This document shows, piece after piece, positions 5,586 through 38,322 of a stretch of DNA of 64,000 nucleotides. The notes under the pieces are model-generated. The model had not been told where the DNA came from and made no database searches. It saw only the letters and a program-made list of their open reading frames with translations. The stretch comes from Escherichia coli. Its GTDB lineage: Bacteria > Pseudomonadota > Gammaproteobacteria > Enterobacterales > Enterobacteriaceae. Location of the stretch: the NCBI RefSeq assembly GCF_044647545.1, contig NZ_CP172818.1; one strand, 5' to 3'. The translations under genes were made by a program, and so were the position numbers. How positions within the stretch are numbered: position 1 is the stretch's first letter; the number at the start of each line of letters is the position of its first letter.

Positions 5586-5620
5586 AAAAAGGCCATCCTT
5601 TCGGATGGCTTTGTTGATTT
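5586..5620. terminator. bidirectional intrinsic terminator (yhdZ on plus strand, rrnD operon on minus strand)
   Basis: GC stem gccatcc-tttc-ggatggc flanked by T-runs on both strands, between yhdZ stop and the 3' end of rrfF. Confidence 0.65.
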
Positions 5621-9428: not shown

Positions 9429-10970
<1,542 letters not shown>

Positions 10971-32749: not shown

Positions 32750-35145
<2,396 letters not shown>

Positions 35146-35165
35146 TCAATCGCTCAATGACCTGA

Positions 35166-35660
<495 letters not shown>

Positions 35661-35799
35661 CTGGGGGGGCGGGCCGCGCCGCGCGGGGGCGCTTGTTCGC
35701 CCTCTCTGCACGGCTGGTGTCCGGCAGTTCGGCCCGTCTCTGGTCGGTTTTTCTGGGTGAAAGGTGGCGGCCGCGCGATTTACGCGTGCCCGCCCCCCC

Positions 35800-36204
35800 C
35801 CCCTTACTCTGGTCAGGTCTTTTGTTCTATCATGGGAGTTTGGGCTAATCGATTCCCCTGATCGGTTTAGCCGATGCGTTATGGGGGGCGATTATTGGTT
35901 ACGGCACATTCGCTGTCATTTACTGGGGGTATCGCATTCTGCGTCATAAAGAAGGATTAGGCTATGGTGATGTGAAGTTTCTCGCCGCCCCCTTGGTGCC
36001 TGGCATACATCCTATCGACTGGTTTTCCTTGCTGCCTTCATTGCTTGCCGAGCCGTAGTTCATTGGTCTGCTCATGAGAGGAAAAGAGTCATTAAAAAAT
36101 CTCCCGCTGCCGTTGTGGGAGCATCTTCTGCGCGAACTGACGGGTTTCGTTGTAGGCTGGGATAGTTATGCTGGCAGGCCGTTAATCTTTAACTTTTATT
36201 TGTG
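35800..36204 (+). pseudogene. gspO: 3' remnant of a type II secretion / type IV prepilin peptidase gene (gspO-like), frameshifted
   Basis: Translation gives PLLWSGLLFYHG, then after a stop ...IGYGTFAVIYWGYRILRHKEGLGYGDVKFLAA, then a frame change before a C-terminal PLPLWEHLL stretch; no start codon or 5' half; the 3' end overlaps the convergent bfr stop. Confidence 0.6.
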
Positions 36205-36658
36205 ATTGCAGGTAATTTTGTAGACCGATTTTACCGATGAGATCCAGCTCAGTTTCGAGCCAGTCAATATGACCTTCTTCATCGGCAAGGATCTCGATCA
36301 TCATATCACGGCTAACATAGTCATGAACGCTGTCGGCATACGCGATAGCCTCACGGAGATCCTTAGCGCCTTCCAGTTCTAATCGCAGGTCGGATTGCAG
36401 CATCTCCTCGACATCTTCACCAATCCCCAGTTTGCCTAAATCCTGTAAGTTGGGGATTCCTTCTAAAAACAAAATACGCTCGATATATTTATCAGCGTGT
36501 TTCATCTCATCGATAGATTCATGGTATTCGACGTCATTGAGACGCATCAGGCCCCAGTTTTTAAACATCCGGGCATGGAGAAAATACTGATTGATTGCGA
36601 CAAGCTCATTTCCCAATAGTTTATTGAGATAATTTATGATTTTAACATCACCTTTCAT
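36182..36658 (-). CDS. bfr: bacterioferritin
   Basis: 158 aa from [32 protein letters not shown]; ferroxidase-site residues; the track ORF has a 7-codon 5' extension. Confidence 0.9.
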
Positions 36659-36729
36659 TTTTAGTCCCTCCGCTTCCACTATTAGAGCGTAGATGGGGCT
36701 AGCGGGATGTCAAAAAATAAGCGTGGGCT

Positions 36730-36924
36730 TCAGGCAATCTCTTTAAATTCTGGCATCTGCATCAACTCGTCCTGCATCACTTCGCGCGCGGCGCGAATGC
36801 ACTTACCGCATTGATTTCCCACAGGAATAAACTTACGCAATTGTTGGAAAGATTGCGGATGAAACTGACGTACTGCCTGGCGAATTTTTTTGTCACTTAC
36901 ACCATTACACAAACAAACGTACAT
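36730..36924 (-). CDS. bfd: bacterioferritin-associated ferredoxin
   Basis: 64 aa, MYVCLCNGVSDKKIRQAV..., Cys ligands for a 2Fe-2S cluster. Confidence 0.9.
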   Translation of the reverse strand: MYVCLCNGVSDKKIRQAVRQFHPQSFQQLRKFIPVGNQCGKCIRAAREVMQDELMQMPEFKEIA

Positions 36925-36944
36925 GATTGCTCCCGTTCAAATTC

Positions 36945-36985
36945 TGCGCAAAGTGTAAATGAGAATGGTTATGATTACAATAGCA
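36945..36985 (-). promoter_or_regulatory. putative Fur box / promoter region upstream of bfd-bfr
   Basis: Minus strand reads tgtaatcataaccattctcatt, resembling the GATAATGATAATCATTATC Fur consensus; by eye only. Confidence 0.3.
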
Positions 36986-37030
36986 CAATTTTATTTGCGC
37001 CATAGTTCAGCGAGGAACGACAAAACGGGC

Positions 37031-37051
37031 AAAAAGGGCGCCGAAGCGCCC
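37031..37051 (-). terminator. intrinsic terminator downstream of tufA (end of str operon)
   Basis: Minus strand GGGCGC-TTCG-GCGCCC hairpin followed by TTTTT, about 30 nt after tufA stop. Confidence 0.75.
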
Positions 37052-37080
37052 TTTTCAATTCAAAACTAATTAACGAGTAA

Positions 37081-38322
<1,242 letters not shown>

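What the first reader, a model, noticed from the sequence alone, without database searches (positions are those of the whole stretch)
35655..35805. About 150 bp GC-rich island with G7 and C11 homopolymers, inverted ends and rare-cutter motifs next to the S10 promoter
The sequence ctgggggggcgggccgcgccgcgcggggg ... ggcggccgcgcgatttacgcgtgcccgccccccccccc is far above local GC content. The G7 tract (35663-35669) and C11 tract (35793-35803) sit in inversely complementary arms (GGGGGGGCGGGC / GCCCGCCCCCCC). It contains GCGGCCGC and ACGCGT, both rare in E. coli. It lies where the -35 element for the minus-strand TATAAT at 35655-35660 would be expected, and at the 5' breakpoint of the gspO remnant. 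Candidates: natural slipped-strand tract, small inverted-repeat element, deletion junction, or assembly/homopolymer error.
Basis: seen in the sequence. Interest (0 to 1): 0.55.

Follow-up and report, generated by a model that had tools for sequence, protein, structure and literature searches.

The report
Garbled assembly patch beside S10 promoter
The GC-rich island is really in the window, but no other public sequence has it, and it is most likely a badly resolved stretch of this one E. coli assembly rather than a biological element.

Summary
Positions 35662-35803 are 74.6% GC against 50.9% for the window. They hold the window's only G7 run, only C11 run and only NotI site, and they have 12-nt perfectly complementary ends.

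The rest of the window is almost base-for-base identical to ST648-like E. coli such as FDAARGOS_497. Identity to all 5,425 complete E. coli genomes stops exactly after the S10 -10 box, at 35661. In relatives, 299 nt lie where the 142-nt island sits: the conserved S10 -35 (TTGCGT), a spacer and the first 105 nt of a 468-nt prepilin-peptidase (gspO) remnant.

The island's right two-thirds are two overlapping, GC-inflated, A/T-depleted garbled copies of one gspO' segment. The next 365 nt differ from relatives by about 42 indels and substitutions. bfr and bfd are identical to relatives.

The same window has other unique oddities of the kind nanopore consensus leaves. Three 16S changes fall at a Dcm site, at a Dam site and between A runs. 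There are also dropped bases at two further non-coding sites.

The island was not found in plasmids, phages, GTDB genomes, JGI metagenomes or 15 billion proteins.

Verdict: a local assembly or consensus artefact, probability about 0.8. A real strain-specific scrambled junction is the main rival. Interest is low.

The parts
35166..35477 (-). rpsJ (S10), first gene of the S10 ribosomal-protein operon; intact
   Evidence: ORF list. RefSeq annotation of the colinear relative. 100% identical to relatives.
35478..35661 (-). S10 leader plus the -10 box (TATAAT at 35655-35660 on the minus strand). Identity to all other E. coli ends at 35661.
   Evidence: Query positions 1-262 (35400-35661) are at least 99% identical in 3,170 records, and the match ends at 262 in the listed rows. 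The distance from the -10 to the rpsJ ATG fits the ~172-nt leader, a figure from my own knowledge.
35662..35803 (.). The GC-rich singleton island (142 nt, 74.6% GC). It replaces 299 nt of relatives: the S10 -35 TTGCGT, a 194-nt spacer and gspO' nt 1-105.
   Evidence: No BLAST hit in E. coli genomes or phages, and only chance-level hits in plasmids. No exact match in GTDB genomes or JGI metagenomes.
35663..35674 (.). Left arm GGGGGGGCGGGC, including the G7 run. It lies in what should be the -10/-35 spacer.
   Evidence: I5.
35788..35799 (.). Right arm GCCCGCCCCCCC. The GCCCG is genuine gspO' sequence (GTGCCCG) and is followed by an inserted C run, C11 at 35793-35803.
35708..35752 (+). Garbled copy 1 of gspO' nt ~72-124 (GCATGGCTTGTTACCTGACAGATTTACGTGCCCGTTACTCTGGTCAGGTCTTT in relatives)
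   Evidence: Local alignment score 19, reached by 2 of 1000 shuffles. It is the best + strand hit of this piece in the 67-kb reference. Direct repeat D1 has 69-nt spacing.
35748..35792 (+). Garbled copy 2 of gspO' nt ~55-105, running on into the remnant. It contains the NotI site (35767) and the MluI site (35782), both created by the garbling.
   Evidence: Local score 16, reached by 0 of 500 shuffles. Alignment.
35804..36168 (+). Rest of the prepilin-peptidase (gspO) remnant, with 29 inserted bases, 10 deleted bases and 3 substituted bases compared with relatives. The reading frame is destroyed. Relatives have an intact 468-nt ORF here.
   Evidence: Annotation of relatives.
36182..36658 (-). 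bfr (bacterioferritin), identical to relatives; right-hand limit of the bad patch
36661..36661 (.). Unique 1-nt deletion (CATTTTATAG to CATTTTTAG) between the bfr ribosome-binding site and start codon
37014..37028 (.). Unique 27-nt shortfall in the bfd-tufA spacer. The retained bases lack every T of the relatives' sequence.
   Evidence: The best E. coli match is 97.7%.
5609..5613 (.). Three C's missing in the rrn terminator hairpin; unique to this window
   Evidence: The best E. coli match is 99.8%.
10347..10881 (-). Three unique G-to-A differences in 16S rRNA (10347, 10687, 10881). They fall at a Dcm site, at the G of a Dam GATC site, and at a G between A runs.
   Evidence: No 16S copy in 5,425 genomes is better than 99.6%.

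Best explanation
The island has no biological function. It is the worst part of a roughly 0.5-kb mis-resolved patch (35662-36168) in this particular genome assembly.

The true sequence is most likely the ordinary rpsJ / S10 promoter / gspO-remnant / bfr spacer of ST648-like E. coli, which is 645 nt in relatives. Here it has been rendered as 507 nt of consensus in which:
- A/T bases are dropped;
- G/C bases and G/C runs are inserted;
- one ~50-70-nt gspO' segment appears twice.

My inferred cause is a long-read (nanopore-type) contig end, circularisation junction or low-coverage patch. Its consensus would have been too wrong for short reads to map and polish. This fits the residual methylation-motif and homopolymer-type errors left in the rRNA operon of the same window.

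Shown: the island is unique, the patch is sharply delimited, it is a garbled copy of gspO', the -35 is lost, and other unique errors occur nearby.

Inferred: the sequencing technology and the exact assembly step that produced the patch.
For: 1. Singleton. Identity to 5,425 complete E. coli genomes ends at 35661, and no genome has the island. There are no non-chance hits in plasmids or phages, no exact hits for two 24-26-mers in GTDB genomes or JGI metagenomes, and no ORF across it among 15 billion proteins.

2. Out of scale with the background. Outside the clusters, the window differs from FDAARGOS_497 by one SNP in the ~27 kb to the right and by a handful of bases in the 35.6 kb to the left. 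The patch has 142 nt of near-unalignable sequence followed by 42 differences in 365 nt.

3. Not foreign DNA. Positions 35748-35792 and 35708-35752 are significant but degraded copies of the same gspO' segment (0 of 500 and 2 of 1000 shuffles). Changes run towards G/C and A is lost. That looks like noise on the native sequence plus an uncollapsed overlap.

4. It removes the -35 (GCTTGCGT) that all five comparators of both locus types keep, in front of an essential 11-gene ribosomal-protein operon (essentiality and leader control per PMC10578931).

5. The same window carries other unique errors. These are 16S changes at CCAGG (Dcm), at GATC (Dam) and at AAAGAA, three dropped C's at 5609-5613, a 1-nt deletion at 36661 and a 27-nt shortfall at 37014-37028. 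Dcm motifs and homopolymers are the dominant nanopore consensus errors (PMC6591954).
Against: - No reads, quality values or assembly metadata are available, so the artefact is inferred, not shown.
- The errors are not uniform. Stretches of 126 nt (35863-35987) and 29 nt (35804-35832) inside the patch are error-free, and bfr and bfd are perfect. A single raw read would not look like that.
- The 12-nt perfectly complementary ends and the stable fold (z = -3.8) are more ordered than plain noise.
- All the dense differences fall in non-coding or pseudogene DNA, which is also what selection on a real mutation cluster would leave.
- C-to-T at a Dcm site is also a classic natural mutation hotspot.
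- No sequencing adapter or recombination-scar sequence is detectable.
Confidence: 0.8

Rival explanations
1. A real, strain-specific complex rearrangement. A break between the S10 promoter and gspO' would have been repaired by template switching or slippage, deleting ~300 nt and leaving a direct duplication of a gspO' segment, an inverted 12-nt copy and expanded G/C runs. The S10 operon would then run on a -10-only promoter, or on read-through from the minus-strand promoter-like site at 35919-35891.
For: - The junction has order: perfect 12-nt inverted ends, a 69-nt-period duplication and a stable fold.
- Dense changes are confined to dispensable DNA, while bfr and bfd are untouched.
- A promoter-like site, ATGACA-17-AATAAT, faces rpsJ 230 nt upstream.
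- The left boundary coincides with the point where natural locus types also diverge from each other.
Against: - Templated repair copies faithfully. Here the copies are 20-40% diverged, with base-composition drift and scattered 1-4-nt insertions over a further 365 nt.
- The conserved -35 of an essential operon is lost.
- None of 5,425 genomes, including near-identical ST648-like strains, shows any intermediate.
- Other unique error-like changes occur in the same window at methylation motifs and hairpins.
Confidence: 0.12
2. A small non-autonomous mobile element (MITE-like or REP/ERIC-like) with 12-bp terminal inverted repeats, inserted next to the S10 promoter.
For: Perfect 12-nt terminal inverted repeats 113 nt apart. 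TACT occurs directly to the left and one base to the right of the island.
Against: - There is no second copy in this window, in 28 Gb of E. coli genomes, or in plasmids, phages, GTDB genomes or metagenomes.
- The interior is garbled native gspO' sequence, not foreign DNA.
- It replaces 299 nt rather than inserting.
- No Rfam family matches.
Confidence: 0.02
3. A phase-variable (contingency) homopolymer tract in a promoter spacer, as in Neisseria porA/opc or Bordetella fim. Slippage of the C7 tract (minus strand) between -35 and -10 would tune S10 operon expression.
For: A 7-nt G/C run lies 2 nt upstream of the -10 hexamer, inside the would-be spacer.
Against: - There is no recognisable -35 on the far side of the tract.
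- The tract is absent from every other E. coli genome, so no length polymorphism exists.
- On/off switching of an essential ribosomal-protein operon is implausible.
Confidence: 0.02
4. Foreign or engineered DNA: a fragment from a GC-rich organism, a polylinker (NotI and MluI 7 nt apart) or a dG/dC-tailed cloning junction.
For: The window's only NotI site sits next to an MluI site. A G run on the left and a C run on the right mimic G/C-tailed inserts.
Against: - No similarity beyond chance to 72,556 plasmids (best E-value 2, Streptomyces and Rhizobium fragments) or to phages.
- No adapter, FRT, loxP or lacZ-polylinker similarity.
- Both restriction sites lie inside the garbled gspO' copy and arise from its G/C-ward changes.
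- At 75% GC such sites are not very unlikely, and ACGCGT occurs 23 times in the window.
Confidence: 0.02

Closest known systems
Long-read assembly defects: contig-end or circularisation-junction errors, and unpolished low-identity patches in hybrid assemblies
   Same: - Sharply bounded stretch of insertion- and deletion-rich consensus.
- Duplicated (uncollapsed) overlap.
- Found in a single assembly, with flanks identical to relatives.
- Accompanied by residual Dcm-, Dam- and homopolymer-type errors in the multi-copy rRNA operon (error classes per PMC6591954).
   Different: - The strong G/C inflation and the neat 12-nt inverted ends are not a described hallmark of such defects that I know of.
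- The technology and pipeline of this assembly are unknown to me.
- Errors are clustered rather than uniform.
The natural rpsJ / gspO-remnant / bfr arrangement of E. coli lineages that lack the gsp type II secretion operon (about 2,250 of 5,425 complete genomes)
   Same: Same gene order, and the same remnant sequence from 35804 onward once indels are discounted. The window's flanks are identical to ST648-like members of this group.
   Different: Relatives have a 194-nt spacer with the S10 -35, and an intact 468-nt remnant ORF. The window lacks the -35, the spacer and the first 105 nt of that ORF, and the rest of its remnant is frameshifted many times.
Phase-variable homopolymer tracts in promoter spacers (Neisseria porA/opc, Bordetella fim; from my own knowledge)
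   Same: A G/C homopolymer lies immediately upstream of a -10 hexamer.
   Different: There is no -35 partner, no tract-length variation among genomes, and the operon is an essential housekeeping one.
Enterobacterial small repeats with inverted ends (REP/BIME, ERIC/IRU, MITEs)
   Same: Size of about 140 nt, intergenic location, terminal inverted repeat, and a stable hairpin-closed fold.
   Different: Single copy in all data searched, no family match, and an interior derived from the adjacent pseudogene.

Membership tests
Sequencing/assembly artefact | Sequence present in one assembly only and absent from near-identical relatives | tested here: met
   None of 5,425 complete E. coli genomes has it. 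Flanks are ~100% identical to ST648-like strains.
Sequencing/assembly artefact | Local difference density far above the genome-wide divergence from the closest relatives, and dominated by indels | tested here: met
   29 insertions, 10 deletions and 3 substitutions in 365 nt, plus 142 nt that are barely alignable. The 27 kb to the right has 1 SNP.
Sequencing/assembly artefact | Other platform-typical errors in the same assembly (methylation motifs, homopolymers, repeats) | tested here: met
   Unique 16S changes at CCAGG, at GATC and at AAAGAA. Dropped bases at 5609-5613, 36661 and 37014-37028. Error classes per PMC6591954.
Sequencing/assembly artefact | Raw reads disagree with the consensus, or coverage/quality collapses at the site | not testable with these tools
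   No reads, quality values or assembly metadata are available.
Mobile small inverted-repeat element (MITE, ERIC, REP-like) | Multiple copies in the genome or in related genomes | tested here: not met
   No BLAST match in 28 Gb of E. coli genomes at E<=10. No matches in plasmids, phages, GTDB genomes or metagenomes.
Mobile small inverted-repeat element (MITE, ERIC, REP-like) | Terminal inverted repeats | tested here: met
   12-nt perfect arms at 35663-35674 and 35788-35799.
Mobile small inverted-repeat element (MITE, ERIC, REP-like) | Simple insertion with a target-site duplication into otherwise intact flanks | tested here: not met
   It replaces 299 nt of the relatives' sequence. TACT on both sides is out of register by 1 nt.
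Phase-variable promoter homopolymer (contingency locus) | Tract lies between functional -35 and -10 elements | tested here: not met
   The -10 is present, but no -35 is. The window has GCGGCG-type sequence where relatives have TTGCGT.
Phase-variable promoter homopolymer (contingency locus) | Tract length varies among strains or among reads | tested here: not met
   The tract is absent from all other genomes. Read-level variation is not testable here.
Natural deletion junction of the gsp locus | Junction shared by the clonal relatives, with flanks colinear with the ancestral sequence | tested here: not met
   The closest relatives (identical flanks) carry the longer, intact version. The window's right flank is garbled for a further 365 nt.

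The most novel reading that the evidence does not exclude
The sequence is real. In that case one ST648-like clinical E. coli has suffered a local replication or repair accident that did three things:
- it scrambled ~650 nt;
- it stripped the -35 and upstream region from the promoter of the essential S10 ribosomal-protein operon;
- it placed a G/C homopolymer in the promoter spacer.

The cell would then live on a -10-only promoter or on read-through transcription. This would be a natural experiment on how much promoter the main ribosomal-protein operon needs, and an example of clustered, GC-biased local hypermutation with no known mechanism in E. coli.
Probability: 0.1. Interest if true: 0.45.

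Novelty: not a real feature. Interest (0 to 1): 0.07.

Why it matters
As an artefact it matters only for data hygiene. It would mis-annotate the S10 promoter and the gspO remnant. It would also create a false NotI site and false unique markers in pangenome or SNP analyses, and it flags that this assembly has unpolished spots, including its 16S gene. If the sequence were real, it would mean that an essential ribosomal-protein operon tolerates complete loss of its -35 and upstream promoter region, which would deserve an experiment.

Tried and rejected
- Rfam scan of 34000-38000 at E<=1: nothing, not even for the S10 leader.
- BLAST of the island: no match in E. coli genomes or phages. In plasmids only chance hits at E>=2 to Streptomyces and Rhizobium.
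- Exact scans of GTDB species genomes and JGI metagenomes with two island 24-26-mers: 0 hits each.
- Protein route. The 103-aa ORF across the island finds only K-12-type ORFs that share the antisense-leader part. Ten exact ORF look-ups were all absent.
- 'The island is the relatives' 299 nt with A/T deleted' (longest common subsequence): not better than shuffles for the island as a whole (119 against 118.7 +/- 2.0). Only the right two-thirds are demonstrably derived.
- 'The whole island is a palindrome' (foldback read): only the 12-nt ends plus CGCG pair; the inner parts are not significant.
- The simple sigma-70 scan finds the S10 promoter neither in the window nor in the relative, because TTGCGT matches only 3 of 6 positions. 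It could not be used as a test.
- Tandem Repeats Finder: nothing.
- Two older S10-leader papers could not be read, so the 172-nt leader length rests on my own knowledge.

Full report
**What is there.**
- G7 lies at 35663-35669 and C11 at 35793-35803. These are the only G or C runs of 7 or more in the 64 kb.
- The 12-nt arms GGGGGGGCGGGC (35663-35674) and GCCCGCCCCCCC (35788-35799) are perfectly complementary.
- The NotI site at 35767 is the only one in the window.
- The MluI site at 35782 is one of 23, so ACGCGT is not rare here.
- The minus-strand TATAAT is at 35655-35660.
- Delimited as 35662-35803, the island is 142 nt with G55 C51 T29 A7, or 74.6% GC. All 142-nt windows average 50.9 +/- 5.0%, with a maximum of 64.1% elsewhere.
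- It folds into an end-closed structure of -46.1 kcal/mol, against -34.3 +/- 3.1 for shuffles.

**Context.** The window is E. coli. The layout is rplC and rpsJ (35166-35477, minus strand), the S10 leader, the island, a prepilin-peptidase (gspO) remnant, bfr (36182-36658, minus), bfd, and tufA. This is the arrangement of the roughly 2,250 complete E. coli genomes that lack the gsp operon between rpsJ and bfr.

The window is almost identical to ST648-like strains such as FDAARGOS_497, IMT16316 and MS6198. Positions 10000-34000 match at 100.0%. In a full comparison with FDAARGOS_497, positions 1-35661 show 7 differences, and the 27 kb to the right of 37028 show one SNP.

**The island is a singleton.** In every one of 5,425 complete genomes, identity stops exactly after CATTATAC at 35661.
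- A sensitive BLAST of the island finds nothing in 28 Gb of E. coli genomes even at E<=10.
- It finds nothing in phages and only chance fragments in plasmids.
- Two island 24-26-mers have no exact match in 100,044 species genomes or in the JGI metagenomes.
- No ORF spanning the island exists among about 15 billion proteins.
- No Rfam family, adapter, FRT/loxP or polylinker similarity was found.

**What it replaces.** Relatives have 299 nt between the -10 box and the point where clean homology resumes (TTACTCTGG, window 35804). Those 299 nt comprise the S10 -35 region, a 194-nt spacer, and the first 105 nt of an intact 468-nt remnant ORF.

Five comparators from both locus types (gsp-less: FDAARGOS_497, O157:H7 ATCC 43888, strain 700481; gsp-bearing: BL21, Esc27) all carry GCTTGCGT 16-17 nt upstream of TATAAT, although their spacers differ. 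The window has GC-only sequence there. The -35 of the promoter of an essential, heavily studied 11-gene operon (PMC10578931) would therefore be gone. The distance from the -10 to the rpsJ ATG (about 171 nt) fits the known ~172-nt S10 leader. That figure is from my own knowledge, because the older papers could not be opened.

**Anatomy of the island.** It is not foreign DNA.
- Positions 35748-35792 are a degraded copy of remnant nt ~55-105. Compare TTTTTCTGGG-TG-AAAGGTGGC..GATTTACGCGTGCCCG with the relatives' TTTTTCTGGGATGCAAAGCATGGCTTGTTACCTGACAGATTTACGTGCCCG. None of 500 shuffles reaches the score.
- Positions 35708-35752 are a second, worse copy of nt ~72-124. Two of 1000 shuffles reach the score, and it is the best + strand hit of that piece in the whole 67-kb reference. 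The repeat finder independently reports the 69-nt-spaced pair CTCTGGTCGGTTTTTCTG / CTCTGGTCAGGTCTTTTG.
- The changes run towards G/C, with loss of A. Both restriction sites and the C11 run are products of this garbling: GTGCCCG|TTACT becomes GTGCCCG-C10-TTACT.
- The leftmost ~45 nt have no demonstrable origin. Their only order is the 12-nt arm (plus CGCG) complementary to the right end.
- Treating the whole island as an A/T-deleted version of the relatives' 299 nt does no better than shuffles.

**The anomaly is larger than the finding.** From 35833 to 36168 the remnant differs from relatives by 29 inserted, 10 deleted and 3 substituted bases in 365 nt. This destroys the ORF that relatives keep intact. 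The patch ends just before the bfr stop codon, and bfr and bfd are identical to relatives.

**Other unique differences in the window:**
- a 1-nt deletion at 36661;
- a 27-nt shortfall at 37014-37028, in which every T of the relatives' sequence is missing;
- three C's missing from the rrn terminator hairpin at 5609-5613;
- three G-to-A changes in 16S rRNA that none of about 38,000 E. coli 16S copies has.

The three 16S changes fall at CCAGG (Dcm), at the G of GATC (Dam), and at a G between A runs. Dcm motifs and homopolymers are the dominant residual errors of nanopore consensus (PMC6591954). Multi-copy rRNA genes are also where short-read polishing commonly fails, a point that rests on my own knowledge.

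**Interpretation.** The strain differs from its relatives by about one SNP per tens of kilobases. It cannot have accumulated some 200 changes in 500 nt by ordinary divergence. Recombination from a distant lineage is also excluded, because the adjacent genes are identical and the differences are mainly indels.

The best explanation (probability about 0.8) is a locally mis-resolved consensus. I infer a long-read contig end, circularisation junction or thin-coverage patch. An uncollapsed overlap would explain the duplicated segment, and short reads could not map well enough to repair the patch.

Evidence against this:
- I have no reads.
- The errors are clustered, with a 126-nt and a 29-nt error-free stretch inside the patch.
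- The ends are neatly complementary.
- All the damage lies in dispensable DNA.

The main rival (about 0.12) is therefore a real, strain-specific complex rearrangement that left the S10 operon with a -10-only promoter or with read-through from the promoter-like site at 35919-35891. A mobile inverted-repeat element, a phase-variable promoter tract, and an engineered or foreign insert each fail defining tests (see the membership table).

**Verdict.** This is not a real biological feature, and interest is low. The decisive test is read mapping, or PCR from rpsJ to bfr (705 nt against 843 nt).

Noticed in passing
window 10347, 10687, 10881 (16S rRNA, about 9429-10970, minus strand): Three G-to-A differences that no 16S copy in 5,425 complete E. 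coli genomes shares (best match 99.6% over 731 nt). The contexts are CCAGG to CCAAG (Dcm site), GGATC to GAATC (Dam site) and AAAGAAG to AAAAAAG. They look like residual nanopore-type consensus errors, but real 5-methylcytosine deamination is not excluded for the first.
   Followed up: partly
window 5609-5613: Three C's are missing from the rrn-operon terminator hairpin (GGATGGCCTTTCGCTTG becomes GGATGGCTTTGTTG). This shortens the stem from 11 to 7 bp and is unique among complete E. coli genomes (best match 99.8%).
   Followed up: partly
window 37014-37028 (bfd-tufA spacer, just beyond the tufA terminator): The window has 29 nt where relatives have 56 nt. The retained bases contain no T at all, so an AT-rich stretch upstream of bfd is lost. 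Unique to this window (best E. coli match 97.7%).
   Followed up: partly
window 36661: A one-base deletion between the bfr Shine-Dalgarno sequence and the start codon (GGAGGGACTATAAAATG becomes GGAGGGACTAAAAATG on the minus strand). The mechanical ORF list therefore starts bfr at an upstream in-frame GTG.
   Followed up: no
window 35655-35700 compared with L001, L002, L005-L007: The gsp-bearing (K-12/BL21-type) and gsp-less E. coli locus types diverge from each other at exactly the same base (after CATTATAC) where the island begins. Both keep GCTTGCGT at the -35 position, with unrelated spacer sequence between it and the -10. The natural boundary of the gsp-locus polymorphism thus runs through the S10 promoter spacer.
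   Followed up: partly
window 6338 / L003 7061 (23S rRNA): FDAARGOS_497 has C5 where the window and other relatives have C6. This is probably a homopolymer error in that reference rather than in the window.
   Followed up: partly
window 35919-35891 (minus strand), also L001 2162-2134: A conserved promoter-like site (ATGACA, 17 nt, AATAAT) lies inside the gspO remnant and points towards rpsJ. It is present in relatives too. Its function is unknown.
   Followed up: no
searches: Every search of the E. coli collection matched 5,425 of 5,426 genomes, even for rpsJ and 16S. One genome never matches. It may be the window's own source, held out of the search.
   Followed up: no
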